Both the position numbers and the translations under genes were made by a program. From contig JAQTWB010000010.1 of NCBI GenBank assembly GCA_028689495.1, forward strand, positions 1-62,272: a stretch of 62,272 nucleotides of DNA, written 5' to 3'. Origin of the DNA: a bacterium. Lineage in GTDB: Bacteria > Bdellovibrionota_C > UBA2361 > SZUA-149 > JAQTWB01. Shown here piece by piece: positions 6,133-49,619 of this stretch. Below the pieces are notes generated by a model. It saw nothing but the letters and a program-made list of their open reading frames with translations. It ran no database searches and was not told the DNA's origin. How positions within the stretch are numbered: the first letter of the stretch is position 1; every line of letters starts with the position of its first letter.

Positions 6133-6684
6133 TTAACTGCTACAACTGCTACAACTTGAGGTGTCTCCTCCACCGGTATCAACATCGTTATTGTTAGCTG
6201 TGCTGTGCTGAGCGCTGCCCGTATGGGTCGGTGCATCATTGCCAACACTGCCGTGTTTGGCAGCAGGACTGCAATCACTACTACTGTTATCGATGTTATT
6301 CGGCGTCGGTGTTTCAAAATGACTGCTTAGTCCGGGCGCGTCCTGCGGATCGTTGCCTATCATCCACCACATCATTAACAAATGATCTGCCAGGTTGGAT
6401 GGTTCATCTTCGAGATAGCGGTAATATTCGGTGCGAAATGTACTGGCCGACGAACCGTTATAGCGAACTGACTGCAAACGTCGACGATTATCGGGTTTGA
6501 TTTCGACTGGCAAAAATTTCAGCAGAATAAGACTTGCCAACAGGCACGCCCTGTCCTCACTACTATTTGCGGCAGTGTAGTTCAAATCATCGACATAGCC
6601 TCTTAATTCAGAGCGATTCAAAACTCCGTCTTTTGCCCGTTTAAAAATAAACTGCAGCTCGGTGTAGCTTAAAATGTTGCTCAT
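6133..6684 (-). CDS. Hypothetical protein with a Cys/Ser-rich C-terminal tail (DTSSCSSCSS). Paralog of 48699-49136.
   Basis: 183-aa ORF. The central LLASLILLKFLPVEI block aligns with LLAMLFMIRFIPEDL of the paralog. Both end in a CX2CX2C(X2C) Ser-rich tail. Confidence 0.5.
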   Translation of the reverse strand: MSNILSYTELQFIFKRAKDGVLNRSELRGYVDDLNYTAANSSEDRACLLASLILLKFLPVEIKPDNRRRLQSVRYNGSSASTFRTEYYRYLEDEPSNLADHLLMMWWMIGNDPQDAPGLSSHFETPTPNNIDNSSSDCSPAAKHGSVGNDAPTHTGSAQHSTANNNDVDTGGGDTSSCSSCSS

Positions 6685-7209
6685 TGCGTTCTCCCGTGGA
6701 GTTAGAAAAAAAACTGGTTGCTTACACCCGTCACATGCCGGGTTCTTTGCTAACCATTACCGAGGCAACGCATTGCCGCAGTAATGGTTAGCAAAGTAGA
6801 ACACTTAAATTGTCGTTGAGTGTATGCTGCAAACCTTGTCTGTGATGCCGTAATCAGAAATAGTCGCAGGGATGACAACTGTGAACTACCAACCATTCTT
6901 GATTACGGTTTCGGAATATCTACCCAAAGGGCTCGTAGGCGAGCAAAATAGTAGGGAACTATTAGGATGTTTGGCTAATGAAGTCAAGATTAGGTATCCG
7001 TGGGCAGATTTTTTTAATCTCAAGGCGTCATGACAGTCTCTTTCAGTTGAAGTCTGGACCAGTGCAGACAACCAGGTTCGGCAAGGGCATTTCAATGCTG
7101 ATAAAAAGCCCATAAATGAGAGACCAGGTGGTCCCTCATTCATGGCCAATGCAGTTTGAACAACCTCAAAAAATGCACTCTGACTGCTGTTATATGGGAT
7201 GAGCTGACA

Positions 7210-8355
7210 CTACCCTTCGGTGGAGTCGCTCAACATGGCTGGGGTCACAGACAATGTTCCCCCATGTTCTCCAACGCTTTTACCGGCCAGATAAAGCTTG
7301 ATCACCTGTAAAACAACATCCTTGTTCACCTCGGCACCACAGGCGCTGAGGCAGCTTGTCATCAAACGGGCAATCTTAACGCCTTCTTTGCTACCTTCTT
7401 CTTCCGCCATCTGCCGACGAAGCTCGTTGTTTTTCCCACTTTCCTGAAGCTCGGTCGCTTCATTCTTTAAAGCGTTCATACGAATCTCATGCTCGGCCTG
7501 ATCAATCGCTTTCTTGGTATTGATCGTCGCCGCGCGGTTGAGAATCTCCTGCACACTTCGATCTTCCGGCATCCAGCCACGCAGCTGAATTTTGGAGATT
7601 TCAAGACCATACTCAACCATTTCTTCCGTGATGCTATTATCCATGAGTTGTTCGATTAATCTGCCCGGCTCGGCCTTAAAATCGTCGAACGTGACAGTAC
7701 CGACAAGCTTGGTTACTCCGGTCATGATTGTATTAAACATAGCGCCAAACGGGTCATCCGTGCTGTTTGTGAATTTGCCGAGGTTCGAAACCTTGAAATA
7801 AATCATTAACTTCACAATCAGCGGAGTTTGATCAGTTTTTGTCCGAGCGGCAACTGAGAAATAGGCTTGAGTCGGTTTGAGACGGACCACCTGAAACCTG
7901 AGATGGCGCGGCTCCTTACCTAACCCATCACTATCCCCACCGCCAGTCAGACAGAATGTGTGTAACTTTTCGTCGGGCTTCACATAAACGCAGTTTGAAA
8001 CTTCCCCGACGTTACCATCGGGAACCTTGCCGCCGAAGTAGTAATTTTGCTTACCATCGCCACCGATGACAACAATGGCTTCGTTTTCAGCCAGCTGAAA
8101 GCGGCTATGTGGTTCCATGTTGCCATCAGGATGAATGTGCAACGCCGCAGGCCCATTGATCACAGTATCTACGCCTGTCTCATCGTAGACTGAAACCCGT
8201 TGCTCCTGATGTATCGCCTGAAAGGTAAAAAATCTTACGTTGCACCAGGGCGGCAGATATCTTGGCCCATCGACTATTACTTCTTTGGAAAAAGGGCTTG
8301 AAACAAGGGCGCGTCGACCCGATGGAATAAACTTGAAAAGCTTAGTTATAGACAT
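7210..8355 (-). CDS. SPFH/band-7-like or major-vault-protein-like domain protein. The start is uncertain; the ORF extends to 8514.
   Basis: The C-terminal region (TFDDFKAEPGRLIEQLMDNSITEEMVEYGLEISKIQLRGW...AIDQAEHEIRMNALKNEATELQ) resembles the SPFH / MVP shoulder with a coiled-coil tail. Upstream repeats (VYDETGVDTVINGP..., IVVIGGDGKQNYYFGG) look MVP-like. Family assignment is tentative. Confidence 0.4.
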   Translation of the reverse strand: MSITKLFKFIPSGRRALVSSPFSKEVIVDGPRYLPPWCNVRFFTFQAIHQEQRVSVYDETGVDTVINGPAALHIHPDGNMEPHSRFQLAENEAIVVIGGDGKQNYYFGGKVPDGNVGEVSNCVYVKPDEKLHTFCLTGGGDSDGLGKEPRHLRFQVVRLKPTQAYFSVAARTKTDQTPLIVKLMIYFKVSNLGKFTNSTDDPFGAMFNTIMTGVTKLVGTVTFDDFKAEPGRLIEQLMDNSITEEMVEYGLEISKIQLRGWMPEDRSVQEILNRAATINTKKAIDQAEHEIRMNALKNEATELQESGKNNELRRQMAEEEGSKEGVKIARLMTSCLSACGAEVNKDVVLQVIKLYLAGKSVGEHGGTLSVTPAMLSDSTEG

Positions 8356-8802
8356 TGTAATAACCTCTTGTCCCGTAGGACTAAAAATGAAAATGGAGTG
8401 CCAATCTCTCCAACAAGGCCGAAGGCTCTGCTGCCTTAGGCCGTGCTGGAAAGTCCCACTACACCAAATTTTTACTGGAAATTCTTTTAAAGAACGGACA
8501 GCTAAGAAGAACATCCGCTGTTATCACAAGCAGTAATCCCATCAGTAGATCCTTTGCGGGAACAAAAACCATTCAAAACTGCGGGCACTTCTTATCATGC
8601 AACAACACGATGTTTCAACAAACAGCCGAGCCATAAACCAGAACAGCGTAATGCTCCCAACTCACCACGGACTTATGTAATAAATCCGTGTAATTGACTT
8701 CTGGTCTCCAGAAAAATCGCCTAGGTATGGATGATGCTGGTGTAATAAACCACTTTCAGGAGCAGAGAATATCCTTATTCTCTGCATTCCATAATTTAGA
8801 TC

Positions 8803-47592: not shown

Positions 47593-48036
47593 ATGATTAT
47601 GACTTCGCTCATCGGGGTGGACTTGACCCCTTTTGCTTTTCTTGAAGAGCAACAGCTTTGGCAACGAATTAAAAACTTTGAAATCGATAACCCAAAGGCA
47701 AAGGAACCTTTTTCCCAACGTCTCGCTAAGGACAAAAACTGGGAACTGGACTTTACCAAACGAGTCATCGATGAATACCTGAAGTTTTGCTTCCTCGCTG
47801 TATCTATCGGCAAATGCACACCATCATTGACAGTTGATCAAGCATGGCATCTGCATCTGATCTATTCGAAAAATTACTGGAAGGAATTTTGTCCAAATGT
47901 TCTCGAATATGATCTGCATCACTGTCCGGGAACAGGAGAGGATAACGAGAAAAAGATCTTTGAGGAAAGATATACAAACACTCTTGGATACTATCGCCAA
48001 TATTTTGGCGGCGATCCACCAGTTGATATCTGGTAA
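47593..48036 (+). CDS. Hypothetical protein (possible DUF1399/GRDP-like WHxHxL motif).
   Basis: 147 aa. VDQAWHLHLIYSKNYWKEFC resembles the D..WH.H.L...Y...C core of the glycine-rich-domain-protein family. Weak. Confidence 0.35.
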   Translation: MIMTSLIGVDLTPFAFLEEQQLWQRIKNFEIDNPKAKEPFSQRLAKDKNWELDFTKRVIDEYLKFCFLAVSIGKCTPSLTVDQAWHLHLIYSKNYWKEFCPNVLEYDLHHCPGTGEDNEKKIFEERYTNTLGYYRQYFGGDPPVDIW

Positions 48037-48698
48037 TACCATTTCAAAACCGGTCTTACCGATCAACGGAGTCTTTAAACACGATATAGTAATCTTCGGA
48101 ACGGTCATGAGTCTGAAATTTCAGCTCATGACCCGCTTCCATACTCTGCTTAAATTAAGGTTCCATATTGCAACTGGTCAGACGTTTCTGGTTACGGCAT
48201 CACAGACAAACCACTTTGAAATACACTTCCGATTGAGTTGGGCAAATCAAAAACCTATCCTTCTATTTTTGGGGTAAAGGCACATTGCATTTTTCGCACC
48301 GATGTTGCCTGGCTCTGACCCGGAAATTGCACGTAAGTTCACAGCTAAAGCTGGTAATTGTCTGTTATTGCTGTTCCGAGTTTTCCGACAGTCTGTAATT
48401 GACGACTCTGCTGTCAGGAGATATTGAAAAAGTCCCCTTTCCTTAGTGTAGAAGTATATCTTGCCGCATTCATCGCTGCGCTTTCAGTAACTCAAGTCTG
48501 CCCACTTGAAGCCTGAACCTGCAATACCGATGAATGCGGCACGACAGTGATAAGGTTACAAGATTATGTCTGCAACAACATGCCATCCACCTGAAGTAAT
48601 GCTCCGACAGGCGCTTCTCCAGGCGGGTGGCACGTTGTTCAGGTCGATATTCTCTGAACGCTTACTGCCCGTTTTTCAACTTCAAACGGAGCATAATC

Positions 48699-49136
48699 AT
48701 GACTCAACATACTATTCCTTTAAACAAACTGAATGCCATGCACCACGGTGCCGAAAATGGCGAGTTTAGCCGTCGTCAACTGCGTGAACACGCCGAAATT
48801 CTAAATACCACGGCACTGATGAGCCCGGACGAAGAGGTAAAACTGCTGGCGATGCTATTCATGATTCGTTTTATCCCGGAAGACCTTGCCGAAGATACAC
48901 TGGAATCTTTTGCCAATATCAACCGGACAAGTGTTGTGTACAACAGGCTGCAAAATCGTTTTACGCCGGTAATTTTGAAGACAGCCACGAACGATCAGCA
49001 ACAACTCTACCTTTGGCTTTTTTCAAACGGGGAGCGGGGCTCGATTCCAACTCCTGTTTGTAATCGTCGAAAAAAACGCCCGGGGGGCAATTGCAGTAGC
49101 TGCAGCGACTGTTCTAGCTGCAGTAATGACGACTAG
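48699..49136 (+). CDS. Hypothetical protein with a Cys/Ser-rich C-terminal tail (NCSSCSDCSSCSNDD). Paralog of 6133-6684.
   Basis: Start at MTQHT with GGAG SD; the ORF extends to 48627. Flanked by inverted GGAAATTGCACGTAAGTTCAC repeats. Confidence 0.5.
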   Translation: MTQHTIPLNKLNAMHHGAENGEFSRRQLREHAEILNTTALMSPDEEVKLLAMLFMIRFIPEDLAEDTLESFANINRTSVVYNRLQNRFTPVILKTATNDQQQLYLWLFSNGERGSIPTPVCNRRKKRPGGNCSSCSDCSSCSNDD

Positions 49137-49619
49137 CCCGGATGTTGCACGTAAGCCCGTCGTGAGGTTGTGAAGTCTGTGGCAAGGCGTGGGGGTAGAG
49201 AGTCGGGAATACTGGCGTATTCCCGAGCGAACGCTCCCCCGCGGATTGTCCAGAATTCGCGACCGCAGCAGGGTAATCAAAGAGTGCAAACTGTAACGAC
49301 AAAATTTAAACAGAATCGGTCGTTGCACTCGTAAATTCGCGGGTGAAACCTGTTTCAGCCGTGAACTTACGTGCAATTTCCTGGCTCGCCCGAATGTTGC
49401 ACGTAAGCAATATTTAGAAATGAGGTGATAATTGAATCAGGCAGGGAAGCCTGATTCTTTCGGCTATACCATTTCAAAAATGGTCTTAACTAGAAGCTGA
49501 AACGTTTTGACAACCAGGTTTTTAATTACACTGTCGTCGCCCATCGCAATTCCGATTGGGGAAATAGTATGTACCAAATCAAACTTGGCAGCCTCGCCTT
49601 GATTCAATATTCAGGGGGC

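What the first reader, a model, noticed from the sequence alone, without database searches (positions are those of the whole stretch)
6133..49410. Paralogous proteins with a CX2CX2CX2C Ser-rich C-terminal tail sit in inverted orientation on both sides of the accessory region; copy 2 is flanked by inverted TTGCACGTAAG-containing repeats
6133-6684 (minus strand; …DTSSCSSCSS*) and 48699-49136 (plus strand; …NCSSCSDCSSCSNDD*) share an internal conserved block. Copy 2 is flanked by GGAAATTGCACGTAAGTTCAC at 48318-48338 and its reverse complement at 49361-49381. Two further TGTTGCACGTAAGC copies lie at 49145 and 49395. Copy 1 has a perfect 16-bp-stem hairpin (6760-6812) in its 5' leader. Possible explanations are a metal-binding or modified tail, a regulated stress gene pair, or inverted homology mediating rearrangement of the segment between them.
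Basis: seen in the sequence. Interest (0 to 1): 0.55.

Follow-up and report, generated by a model that had tools for sequence, protein, structure and literature searches.

The report
Split Cys-tail protein module, duplicated
Two small, very rare soluble proteins that end in a Cys/Ser tail are a split, stripped-down form of a widespread but uncharacterised bacterial module (UCP032817-like domain plus Cys-rich C-terminal tail), and they do not drive inversion of the defence island that lies between them.

Summary
ORFs 6133-6684(-) and 48699-49136(+) are paralogs (35% identity over 49 aa, E 9e-9). Both end in GG-x-[CSS]n. Copy 2 has CX2CX2CX2C, but copy 1 has only CX2C.

Their N-domain is almost an orphan. 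Only one other homolog exists among 1.84 billion representative proteins, and it ends ...GGPSSCSSCSSGD.

The gene upstream of copy 2 (47593-48036) explains the pair. It is a UCP032817-like (PF27765) domain.
- Of 80 homologous loci, 52 fuse this domain to a C-terminal Cys/Gly/Ser tail, often through a TIGR04222 membrane domain.
- A further 12 loci carry the tail on the next gene.
- The same gene pair recurs in the second organism.

So the tail is a family hallmark, not a low-complexity accident. This window holds a minimal, soluble, two-gene version plus an extra paralog.

The function of the whole class is unknown. I infer a disordered thiol tail that binds metal or is modified, serviced by the His-rich partner domain. 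No MNIO, radical-SAM or YcaO gene lies in the 62 kb.

The paralogs also share non-coding elements: a 5' box, a long leader hairpin with compensatory changes, and a 3' TTGCACGTAAG element.

Inversion between the copies is not supported, because the longest shared exact match is 18 nt. The segment between them is a BREX defence island bounded by other repeats.

The parts
6133..6684 (-). Copy 1 (PHC51_03665), 183 aa. It has a helical N-domain of about 110 aa, a disordered Ser/Asn/Asp/Gly linker of about 60 aa, and the tail GGGDTSSCSSCSS*.
   Evidence: ORF. Paralogy. The AF2 model gives pLDDT 80-92 for roughly the first 70 residues and <50 for residues 119-177. It is 49% identical to P0002.
6136..6174 (-). 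Cys/Ser tail of copy 1 (GGGDTSSCSSCSS).
   Evidence: The columns G173, S176, S177, C178, S179, C181, S182 and S183 are invariant across the three family members.
6745..6796 (-). Leader hairpin of copy 1 (18-bp outer stem plus 5-bp inner stem), ending 61 nt upstream of the ATG.
   Evidence: Fold z-score -5.0. The hairpin is conserved in L001, with 3 of 20 pairs changed on both sides yet kept.
6834..6860 (-). Conserved 5' box TTTCTGATTACGGCATCACAGACAAGG. The core CGGCATCACAGACAA is identical upstream of all three family genes.
   Evidence: 25 nt at 96% identity to 48185-48209; the 18-nt exact match is the longest shared by the two loci.
6043..6081 (-). 3' element downstream of copy 1 (…CTTGTTTCAGTTGTGAAATTACGTGCAATT), antisense TTGCACGTAA motif.
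   Evidence: It is 85% complementary to 49340-49378 over 39 nt (I3). It lies within a predicted 3' hairpin.
47593..48036 (+). UCP032817-like (PF27765) domain-only gene (PHC51_03810; NCBI aa starting at 47599). It is the partner of the tail proteins. It carries the invariant D-x2-WHLH…YW-x3-C…HH motif.
   Evidence: Precomputed PF27765 for P0004 and 20 homologs. It is 53% identical to the gene upstream of P0002 in L001. AF2 gives pLDDT 93.9, all-alpha.
48185..48209 (+). Conserved 5' box upstream of copy 2 (…TTACGGCATCACAGACAA…).
48315..48355 (+). Repeat a. This is the left arm of the 37-nt inverted repeat that flanks copy 2 (CCCGGAAATTGCACGTAAGTTCACAGCTAAAGCTGGT).
   Evidence: (D1, I1).
48459..48544 (+). 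Leader hairpin of copy 2 (17-nt arms, 94% complementary, structured 52-nt loop).
   Evidence: I4. Fold z-score -4.3.
48699..49136 (+). Copy 2 (PHC51_03815), 145 aa. It has a helical N-domain and the tail GGNCSSCSDCSSCSNDD*.
   Evidence: An independent Logan contig, L087, is 100% identical over 46518-49162.
49083..49133 (+). Cys/Ser tail of copy 2 (CX2CX2CX2C).
49133..49156 (+). Repeat b (CTAGCCCGGATGTTGCACGTAAGC). It overlaps the stop codon of copy 2.
   Evidence: D1.
49348..49408 (.). Repeats c (49348-49384, antisense; the right arm of the inverted repeat and the homolog of the copy-1 3' element) and d (49385-49408, sense). Together they form an 11-bp perfect hairpin CUUACGUGCAA/UUGCACGUAAG in the 3' UTR.
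   Evidence: I1, I5, D1. Fold z-score -3.7.
49623..49641 (-). Degenerate repeat e (TGACCCGGATGTTGTACGT). It forms the last codons and stop of the convergent 803-aa membrane-protein ORF.
   Evidence: (I3, I6).

Best explanation
The two ORFs are carrier proteins for a short, disordered Cys/Ser C-terminal tail. That tail belongs functionally to the UCP032817-like (PF27765, distantly GRDP-like) domain encoded at 47593-48036.

In most bacteria the domain and the tail are one polypeptide: an N-terminal UCP032817-like domain, then transmembrane segments or a TIGR04222 domain, then a tail such as …CGGGCGGCGGGD or …CSSCSSCSSGCGGGD. In other bacteria they are two adjacent genes.

In this organism, and in one related metagenomic organism, the module is reduced. 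It consists of a 145-aa domain-only protein and a 145-187-aa soluble protein: an orphan helical domain, a disordered linker, a GG pair, and the Cys/Ser tail. The tail gene has been duplicated. Copy 2 keeps the ancestral position downstream of the UCP gene. Copy 1 stands alone, behind its own terminator-separated leader, and would have to be served in trans.

Inferred mechanism, not shown: the tail is a flexible thiol-rich peptide that binds a metal or is covalently modified on Cys. The partner domain, with its invariant D…WHxH…C…HH residues, is the component that loads, modifies or reads it. Both lack signal peptides and hydrophobic segments, so here this would happen in the cytoplasm.

The paralogs are probably co-regulated. 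They share a 5' box (CGGCATCACAGACAA), a long stable leader hairpin, a U-run just upstream of the Shine-Dalgarno sequence, and a 3' element containing TTACGTGCAA. These are conserved although the coding DNA has diverged beyond alignment.

I read the position of the paralogs on either side of the BREX island as circumstantial.
For: Shown:
1. Paralogy and tail conservation in all three known members, with synonymous codon variation in the tail.
2. The N-domain is an orphan. HMMER against 1.84e9 representatives finds only these three proteins plus a spurious eukaryotic gag protein. The word-indexed search of 5.8e9 proteins and scans of genome and metagenome contigs add nothing.
3. The UCP032817-like gene lies directly upstream of the tail gene in both organisms.
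4. Of 80 UCP032817-like loci from GTDB species representatives, 52 have the Cys-rich tail on the same ORF. Another 12 have it on the next ORF on the same strand. Seven more have shorter tails with two or so cysteines in the same ORF.
5. The next-gene carriers tested (5 ORFs from 4 of the 12 loci) and two fused proteins are TIGR04222, with E from 1e-32 to 1e-47.
6. P0010 and P0017 are short fused forms (domain, transmembrane segments, tail) ending …CGGGCGGCGG and …CNSCCNSCCGD.
7. No other gene family is conserved around these loci, so domain plus tail is the unit.
8. AF2 gives a confident all-alpha UCP domain (pLDDT 93.9). For copy 1 it gives a folded N-domain with a disordered linker and tail.
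9. No hydrophobic segments were found in the three window proteins.
10. Cis-elements are described. The SPFH gene upstream of copy 1 has its own terminator-like hairpin at 7145-7110.

Literature: TIGR04222 proteins with Ser/Gly/Cys tails are considered candidate substrates of MNIO enzymes, but a third of the genomes that hold them lack an MNIO gene, and their function is unknown (PMC12452194).
Against: - The N-domain of the tail proteins shows no detectable relation to TIGR04222 or to any part of the fused proteins (hhalign probability about 1%). 'Split version' therefore rests on the tail and on gene adjacency, not on homology of the carrier.
- The tail is short and low in complexity, so tail-to-tail homology cannot be proven.
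- Copy 1 has no adjacent UCP gene.
- Only two organisms carry this form, so conservation of the gene pair is n=2.
- Metal binding versus covalent modification is undecided.
- Topology of the fused proteins could not be settled with a crude hydropathy count.
- The TTGCACGTAAG repeats may be a genome-wide repeat family rather than regulatory sites.
Confidence: 0.62

Rival explanations
1. The proteins are precursors of a ribosomally made, post-translationally modified peptide (RiPP). The roughly 110-aa N-domain would be a long leader, the GG a double-glycine cleavage site, and the Cys/Ser stretch the core. The core would be modified by an enzyme encoded elsewhere in the genome (MNIO/DUF692, YcaO cyclodehydratase or radical SAM), then cleaved and exported.
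For: - GG lies 1-2 residues before the first tail Cys (two positions before the S/C core in the alignment) in all three proteins.
- Cys/Ser cores resemble thiazole/oxazole-type or MNIO substrates.
- The literature proposes MNIO modification for Cys-rich TIGR04222 tails.
- Multiple precursor paralogs per genome are common.
Against: - No MNIO, YcaO, radical-SAM, C39-peptidase or ABC-exporter gene lies next to either copy, anywhere among the ORFs scanned in the 62 kb, in L001, or near four other homologs.
- No conserved neighbour family appears across 80 loci.
- There are no NHLP or Nif11 leader hits in NCBIfam.
- In most family members the tail ends a large integral membrane protein, which argues for in-place function rather than release.
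Confidence: 0.15
2. The TTGCACGTAAG-containing repeats are members of a genome-wide family of intergenic repeats (REP/BIME- or MITE-like). They happen to lie near both paralogs and have no specific role in them.
For: - The window is rich in other intergenic repeat families: an 81-nt element, 140-nt and 64-nt direct repeats, and 20-28-nt tandem arrays.
- Four or five copies cluster, in alternating orientation, between convergent genes. Two overlap stop codons, as REP-type elements often do.
- The motif is absent from the related locus L001.
- The Logan contig ends right after repeat b.
Against: - Five of the six near-exact matches in 62 kb, plus the degenerate repeat e, lie within about 500 nt of a tail-protein CDS. 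The remaining one-mismatch match, at 23539-23549, lies inside the BREX island.
- The 39-nt version sits at the same relative position and orientation downstream of both paralogs.
- The unit is not itself a palindrome.
Confidence: 0.3
3. The inverted paralogs, or the 37-nt inverted repeats around copy 2, are substrates for DNA inversion. This would be either inversion of the 43-kb segment by homologous recombination, or a site-specific invertible switch or mobile cassette carrying copy 2.
For: - The genes are inverted relative to each other on both sides of a defence island.
- A 37-nt, 86% inverted repeat encloses the 992 nt that contain copy 2 and its leader hairpin.
Against: - Inter-copy DNA similarity is limited to 39-nt (85%) and 25-nt patches. 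The longest exact match is 18 nt. From general knowledge, this is below the roughly 20-30 nt of perfect identity needed for efficient RecA recombination.
- No recombinase, invertase or transposase domain was found in the neighbouring ORFs.
- No target-site duplication is evident by inspection.
- The independent assembly L087 has the same orientation across the left repeat.
- The island is bracketed by other repeats at 9.5-9.9 kb and 43.6-45.7 kb.
Confidence: 0.04
4. The tail is a low-complexity accident at the end of two unrelated hypothetical ORFs.
For: - The tail is short and of simple composition.
- The tail DNA of copy 2 contains a small palindrome (I13).
Against: - N-domain homology is significant.
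- The tail is present in all three members, with different codons.
- The partner family carries such tails in at least 64 of 80 loci.
- Only these two ORFs in the window have such an end.
Confidence: 0.02

Closest known systems
UCP032817-like (Pfam PF27765) proteins with a Cys/Gly/Ser C-terminal tail. Examples are Nostoc linckia NIES-25 (L008), Waterburya agarophytonicola (L069, tail GSCSSCSSCSSGCSSCSSGCGGGD) and Flavobacterium beibuense (L070).
   Same: - The partner gene at 47593-48036 is a member of this family.
- The extreme C-terminal CxxC/CxxxC low-complexity tail often ends in an acidic residue (GGD, GD, NDD).
- The domain and the tail are genetically coupled.
- There is no conserved maturase neighbour.
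   Different: - Here the tail is not on the UCP polypeptide and not on a membrane protein.
- It sits on a small soluble protein with an orphan helical domain.
- It is Ser-rich rather than Gly-rich.
- The tail gene is duplicated, and one copy is unlinked from the UCP gene.
TIGR04222 ('near_uncomplex') domain-containing membrane proteins, discussed as putative MNIO substrates in PMC12452194.
   Same: - They have an unstructured Ser/Gly tail interspersed with Cys at the C-terminus.
- They have several paralogs per genome.
- In Erythrobacteraceae-type loci they sit directly downstream of a short UCP032817-like gene, exactly as copy 2 does.
- Their function is unknown.
   Different: - The window proteins have no TIGR04222 match, no transmembrane segment and no profile similarity.
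- There is no MNIO gene nearby.
Bufferins and oxazolins (MNIO-modified, Cys-containing copper-chelating RiPPs)
   Same: Conserved Cys motifs are presumed to be the functional, metal-binding residues, and the precursors are small proteins.
   Different: - Bufferins have Sec signal peptides and obligatory adjacent MNIO (DUF692) and DUF2063 genes.
- None of these is present here.
FeoB-associated Cys-rich membrane protein (PF12669)
   Same: It has a C-terminal CGGC/CSGC-type tail. One fused UCP homolog gives a weak hit.
   Different: - It is a tiny single-transmembrane protein encoded next to feoB.
- Copy 2 scores only E 7.3.
- There is no transmembrane segment and no feo genes here.
Plant and bacterial GRDP-like / DUF1399 proteins (PF07173)
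   Same: - They share the WHxHxL…Y…C core motif. This is from my own knowledge of the family, supported here only by weak hits in 2 of 20 homologs, best E 0.0033.
- The domain is associated with a Gly-rich low-complexity region.
   Different: The hits are below Pfam thresholds, the window protein itself gives no hit, and the function of GRDP is also unknown.

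Membership tests
UCP032817-like + Cys-tail module | A PF27765 (UCP032817-like) domain is encoded in the same polypeptide or the adjacent gene. | tested here: met
   Met for copy 2. Gene 47593-48036 (P0004) carries precomputed PF27765 and is 53% identical to the L001 gene annotated PF27765. It lies 660 nt upstream on the same strand. Not met for copy 1: tblastn finds no second UCP copy in the window.
UCP032817-like + Cys-tail module | A low-complexity tail with repeated CxxC/CxxxC at the extreme C-terminus. 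| tested here: met
   The comparison set has 52 fused tails, 12 adjacent tails and 7 shorter tails among 80 loci.
UCP032817-like + Cys-tail module | Transmembrane segments or a TIGR04222 domain lie between the domain and the tail. | tested here: not met
   There is no NCBIfam hit and no hydrophobic segment. This is why I call it a variant rather than a plain member.
TIGR04222 domain-containing membrane protein | A match to the TIGR04222 HMM above the 43-bit cutoff. | tested here: not met
   There are no hits at E<=0.01 for copy 1 or copy 2. hhalign against 36 fused proteins gives a probability of about 1%.
MNIO-modified RiPP precursors (bufferin, oxazolin, methanobactin type) | An MNIO (DUF692 / MbnB_TglH_ChrH) gene adjacent to the precursor gene. 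| tested here: not met
   Pfam scans of the 40 window ORFs submitted gave no DUF692. PglX (28471-32760) and BrxC (34308-37853) were scanned with PADLOC only. A few ORFs of 120 aa or more, including 41597-41959, 45917-46300 and 46616-46996, were not scanned. None was found in L001 or around four homologs. The rest of the genome could not be searched.
MNIO-modified RiPP precursors (bufferin, oxazolin, methanobactin type) | An N-terminal Sec signal peptide (bufferins, oxazolins). | tested here: not met
   There is no hydrophobic stretch in either protein, and the N-termini are polar and helical. No dedicated signal-peptide predictor was available.
NHLP/Nif11-leader TOMM or lanthipeptide precursors | Leader homologous to NHLP (TIGR03793) or Nif11 (TIGR03798), a GG cleavage motif, and a neighbouring cyclodehydratase and PCAT exporter. 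| tested here: not met
   GG is present. There is no NCBIfam leader hit, and no YcaO or C39-ABC genes were found nearby.
Invertible DNA segment, IS or MITE | Terminal inverted repeats plus a cognate recombinase or transposase, a target-site duplication, and both orientations observed. | tested here: inconclusive
   Inverted repeats are present (37 nt, 86%). No recombinase or transposase was found in neighbours. No target-site duplication was seen by inspection. One independent assembly shows the same orientation. Read-level evidence is not testable here.
FourU-type RNA thermometer | A U-run pairing with the Shine-Dalgarno sequence in a weak hairpin that follows a stable upstream hairpin. | tested here: inconclusive
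   A U-run directly upstream of the SD is conserved in all three leaders. The predicted SD hairpins are no better than shuffles for copy 1 and L001 (z +0.6 and +0.9) and only modest for copy 2 (z -2.45).

The most novel reading that the evidence does not exclude
The UCP032817-like domain is a previously unrecognised enzyme or metallochaperone. Its invariant residues are D-x2-WHxH…C…HH, and no solved structure resembles its fold. It would act on Cys-rich C-terminal tails without any MNIO, YcaO or radical-SAM partner. That would define a new, widespread protein-tail modification or metal-handling system, found in hundreds of species across Cyanobacteria, Planctomycetota, Verrucomicrobiota, Bacteroidota and Alphaproteobacteria.

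The pair in this window is its smallest soluble form: about 145 aa of enzyme and about 145 aa of substrate, with no membrane domain. That makes it the easiest entry point for biochemistry.
Probability: 0.2. Interest if true: 0.7.

Novelty: new variant of a known kind. Interest (0 to 1): 0.4.

Why it matters
Cys-rich low-complexity tails on TIGR04222 and UCP032817-like proteins occur in thousands of bacterial genomes, and their function is unknown. The only published idea is that some are MNIO substrates, yet many genomes with them lack an MNIO gene.

Two points emerge from this window.
- The UCP032817-like domain and the tail are coupled by fusion, by adjacency, and now by a minimal split pair. 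This points to the domain itself as the tail's functional partner.
- A soluble two-protein version exists that could be expressed and analysed (mass spectrometry, metal content, complex formation) without handling membrane proteins.

For genome annotation, the result also removes a tempting but wrong reading, namely that inverted paralogs drive inversion of a BREX island.

Tried and rejected
- **Family scans of the tail proteins.** Pfam and NCBIfam scans of both proteins gave no hits. At E<=10 only noise appeared.
- **Homolog searches.** The 5.8e9-protein search found one homolog. A HMMER profile against 1.84e9 representatives found nothing new; the one extra hit, P0025, is a eukaryotic retrotransposon gag repeat and is spurious.
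- **Contig scans with the N-domain profile.** Genome and metagenome contigs gave nothing.
- **Leader-box scan.** A metagenome scan with the 22-nt leader box gave one hit, inside a phage baseplate-like gene, which is coincidental.
- **Profile comparison.** hhalign of the N-domain against 36 fused UCP-TIGR04222 proteins was not significant. A faint resemblance to the segment just before the tail (…LLGxxxLPxxxxxDL…) is noted but rejected as evidence.
- **RNA family searches.** Rfam at gathering threshold on the whole window, and permissively on both loci, gave nothing credible. No tRNA was found as an integration site.
- **Second UCP copy.** tblastn for a second or decayed UCP gene upstream of copy 1 found none.
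- **Topology.** A crude hydropathy count of the fused proteins gave mixed parity and is uninformative.
- **RNA thermometer idea.** The SD-sequestering (fourU) idea is weak.
- **Promoter scan.** The sigma-70 scan gave nothing above shuffles.
- **BREX repeats.** An early idea was that the repeats inside BREX are phase-variable PglX cassettes. It is rejected: the 169-aa ORF tested (22632-23141) is a duplicated PglZ N-terminal fragment, and 24688-25197 is its 96%-identical DNA repeat.

Full report
**1. What is there**

The window is a 62,272-bp MAG contig; NCBI labels its proteins 'MAG: bacterium', locus tags PHC51_….

ORF 6133-6684(-) encodes 183 aa and ORF 48699-49136(+) encodes 145 aa, both with plausible Shine-Dalgarno sequences. 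BLASTP gives 35% identity over 49 N-terminal residues, E 9e-9.
- Copy 1 ends DTGGGDTSSCSSCSS*.
- Copy 2 ends RPGGNCSSCSDCSSCSNDD*.

So the CX2CX2CX2C of the finding's title applies to copy 2 only; copy 1 has a single CX2C. No other ORF in any frame of the window ends in such a tail.

The TTGCACGTAAG motif is strongly over-represented: 6 matches with at most one mismatch against 0.87 expected, with 0 of 100 shuffles reaching 6. Copy 2 is flanked by a 37-nt, 86% inverted repeat at 48319-48355 and 49348-49384.

The copy-1 leader hairpin is real (z -5.0) but lies at 6745-6796, about 15 nt from the stated position.

**2. How rare the proteins are**

Pfam and NCBIfam give nothing for either protein.

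The 5.8-billion-protein search finds the two proteins themselves and one homolog, P0002. It is 49% identical to copy 1 and comes from a 4.4-kb Logan contig, L001.

A HMMER profile of the N-domain against 1.84 billion representatives finds only these three proteins plus a spurious eukaryotic gag-repeat protein. Pattern and tblastn scans of GTDB genomes and JGI metagenomes find none.

P0002 probably starts at the ATG at L001 3596 (MFEKIL…). It ends DSGGPSSCSSCSSGD*. The GG and the SSCSxCSS block are therefore invariant in the family, while the Ser and Cys codons differ.

**3. The informative neighbour**

A 145/147-aa ORF at 47593-48036 lies directly upstream of copy 2 on the same strand. It is 53% identical to the gene directly upstream of P0002 in L001, and both are annotated PF27765 'UCP032817-like'.

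This family is widespread. At least 589 confirmed loci exist among GTDB species representatives, in cyanobacteria, Planctomycetota, Verrucomicrobiota, Bacteroidota, Erythrobacteraceae and others.

I examined the best 80 loci.
- In 52, the ORF carrying the UCP domain runs on for 180-480 residues and ends in a Cys/Gly/Ser tail. Examples are …CGGGCGGCGGGD and, in Waterburya, GSCSSCSSCSSGCSSCSSGCGGGD.
- In 12, the UCP ORF is short and the next ORF on the same strand carries the tail.
- Four are cut by contig ends.
- Of the remaining 12, seven have shorter tails with two or so cysteines.

The middle part of two long fused proteins is the NCBIfam domain TIGR04222, 'near_uncomplex' (E 2e-47 and 4e-32). 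So are all five next-gene tail carriers tested, from four of the 12 loci (E 1e-32 to 1e-38). Short fused forms with only two hydrophobic segments also exist: P0010 ends …CGGGCGGCGG and P0017 ends …CNSCCNSCCGD.

An all-against-all comparison of the flanking ORFs of the 80 loci finds no other family conserved beyond close relatives. None of the loci inspected individually has an MNIO, radical-SAM or YcaO gene.

The recurrent unit is therefore 'UCP032817-like domain plus C-terminal Cys-rich tail', coupled by fusion or by adjacency.

**4. Reading of the window**

Copy 2 and its upstream gene are a split version of that unit. In it, the usual membrane or TIGR04222 carrier is replaced by a small soluble protein.
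- The window proteins have no hydrophobic segments.
- AF2 of copy 1, from only three sequences, gives a helical domain (pLDDT 80-92 for roughly the first 70 residues, falling towards residue 110), followed by a disordered stretch (residues 119-177, pLDDT <50) leading into the tail.
- AF2 of the UCP domain is confident (pLDDT 93.9) and all-alpha.

The UCP alignment has invariant D80, W83, H84, H86, Y93, W94, C98, H107 and H108. This looks like a metal or active site, but that is inference.

Two of 20 homologs give weak GRDP-like (PF07173) hits, best E 0.0033. One gives a weak FeoB-associated Cys-rich protein hit.

The carrier N-domain has no detectable relation to TIGR04222 (hhalign probability about 1%). 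Copy 1 has no UCP gene next to it, and there is no second copy in the window.

**5. What is known about such tails**

The only literature found is the MNIO survey PMC12452194.
- It reports more than 3,500 TIGR04222 proteins, with unstructured Ser/Gly tails interspersed with Cys.
- Subsets are genetically linked to MNIO enzymes and are proposed as substrates.
- About a third of genomes with TIGR04222 lack any MNIO gene.
- The modifications and the function are unknown.

None of the window ORFs scanned is an MNIO.

I therefore commit to the following. The tail is the functional end of the protein, a flexible thiol peptide that binds metal or is modified on Cys. The UCP032817-like domain is its cognate partner. 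In this organism the process is cytoplasmic. The association is shown; the chemistry is inferred.

**6. Cis-elements**

The two paralogs' coding DNA no longer aligns. The only inter-locus similarities are two short patches:
- a 25-nt 5' box, 96% identical, with an 18-nt exact run TTACGGCATCACAGACAA;
- a 39-nt 3' element, 85% identical.

The 5' box, with about 50 nt upstream of it, is also conserved in L001.

All three leaders then contain a long stable hairpin (z -5.0, -4.4 and -4.3). Between copy 1 and L001, 3 of 20 pairs changed on both sides and remained paired.

A U-run sits just upstream of the SD in all three leaders. Predicted SD-masking hairpins are weak, so an RNA-thermometer reading remains an untested idea.

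The SPFH gene upstream of copy 1 ends in its own terminator-like hairpin, so copy 1 is a separate transcription unit.

The TTGCACGTAAG family comprises repeats a, b, d and the degenerate e in one form, and the c/f form (CTGTTTCAG..GTGAA.TTACGTGCAATT) that lies antisense downstream of both paralogs. Repeats c and d together make an 11-bp perfect 3' hairpin. Repeat a lies in about 340 nt of leader that copy 2 has in excess of copy 1 and L001.

Whether these repeats are binding sites, RNA elements or a genome-wide repeat family cannot be decided from one contig. The window has several other repeat families, which keeps the repeat-family rival alive at about 0.3.

**7. The segment between the copies**

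The segment is a defence island. It holds BREX type 1, plus an HEC-02 pair, DUF3644, Mrr, Fic, a Schlafen/AlbA-like gene and GmrSD. The BREX genes are:

| Gene | Coordinates |
|---|---|
| BrxA | 38306-39235 |
| BrxB | 37768-38343 |
| BrxC | 34308-37853 |
| PglX | 28471-32760 |
| PglZ | 17992-20337 |
| BrxL | 15953-17995 |

Housekeeping genes flank the region: a UvrA-like gene, then AroC, PrfB, YbeY and AlaRS.

The island has its own bracketing repeats. A direct repeat of about 140 nt lies at 9772-9910 and 45554-45693, and oppositely oriented short tandem arrays lie at 9489-9603 and 43582-43775. These are several kb inside the paralogs.

Three facts argue against inversion or mobility driven by the paralogs:
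- only 18 nt of exact identity between the copies;
- no recombinase next to either copy;
- an independent Logan contig identical to 46518-49162 in the same orientation.

**8. Verdict**

The tail is a genuine, selected feature that ties these orphan proteins to a widespread but functionally unknown class. The window shows a new, minimal, soluble and duplicated variant of that class. The rearrangement idea is rejected. Interest is moderate. Nothing here is mechanistically demonstrated, but the domain-tail coupling and the tractable two-gene form are worth a specialist's attention.

Noticed in passing
window 9772-9910 and 45554-45693: A direct repeat of about 140 nt (98% and 90% identity in two blocks) brackets the 35.8-kb segment that runs from the FG-GAP gene through BREX to the BaxI gene. 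These may be the true island boundaries, or att-like or repeat-element remnants.
   Followed up: partly
window 9489-9603 and 43582-43775 (plus a single copy near 46722-46745): There are short tandem arrays in opposite orientation: CGAAAATGGGACCGGGTTAC, about 4 copies, and a 27/28-nt unit AACCCGGTTCCATTCCTGCTTGTCCCCA, about 6 copies. They share the core AACCCGGTyCCATT and lie near the two ends of the island. They resemble multi-site transposase or replication-protein binding arrays, but no transposase was found.
   Followed up: no
window 9650-9729, 12627-12706, partial copies at 48036-48060 and 49466-49490; L001 4278-4358: An 81-nt element (ATACCnTTTCAAAAAnGGTCTTAACTTTTAG…ATAATTGAAACGG) is repeated in the window. 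It is 79% identical in the unrelated contig L001, where it also follows the tail-protein gene. That is more conserved than the coding DNA. There is no Rfam match and the function is unknown.
   Followed up: partly
window 20137-25197: The BREX operon is interrupted between pglX and pglZ by inserted genes: DUF3644, a 430-aa unknown, and an HEC-02 AAA_21/HEC-02B pair. Each insertion is bounded by a duplicated 5' fragment of pglZ. ORF 22632-23141 (169 aa) matches PglZ residues 4-70, and 24688-25197 is its 96%-identical DNA repeat. Direct repeats of 200-300 nt are 90-96% identical. This looks like serial cassette insertion at one hotspot inside BREX.
   Followed up: partly
window 22857-22913, 24913-24969, 29089-29169, 30183-30221, 31187-31243, 31854-31892: Palindrome-containing repeats (GCCAGACCAGGATGGTCTGGCTACC) occur in both orientations, inside pglX and in the cassettes downstream. 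They may be sites for recombination or phase variation. This was not examined.
   Followed up: no
window 5546-5609 and 45933-45996; 46539-46681 and 53039-53181; 46330-46361 and 52151-52182: There are further dispersed repeats: a 64-nt direct repeat (88%), a 143-nt direct repeat (79%) whose second copy lies inside the Mur-ligase ORF, and a 32-nt inverted repeat (91%). The contig is unusually rich in intergenic repeat families.
   Followed up: no
window 7210-9210 (-) and 44424-45350 (-): An SPFH/Band-7 gene with an NfeD-like membrane gene lies next to copy 1. A Bax-inhibitor-1-like gene lies near the other end of the island. No link to the tail proteins was established.
   Followed up: no
window 46057-47441 and 41703-44286: There are apparent gene fragments: a DUF4143 ATPase C-terminal part without its AAA N-domain, a truncated transpeptidase or beta-lactamase-like ORF, and a truncated Zn-ADH ORF. 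This suggests decay or rearrangement at the right edge of the island.
   Followed up: no
L002 2733-2754: In the contig of the closest UCP032817-like homolog (P0005, 56% identity), a new ORF starts 140 nt downstream (MSNDTLT…) just before the contig ends. It could be a fourth tail-protein gene but cannot be read.
   Followed up: no
window 49134-49154: If the TAG stop of copy 2 were read through, the frame would continue as PGCCT*. That would add two more cysteines, encoded by repeat b. This is probably a coincidence.
   Followed up: no
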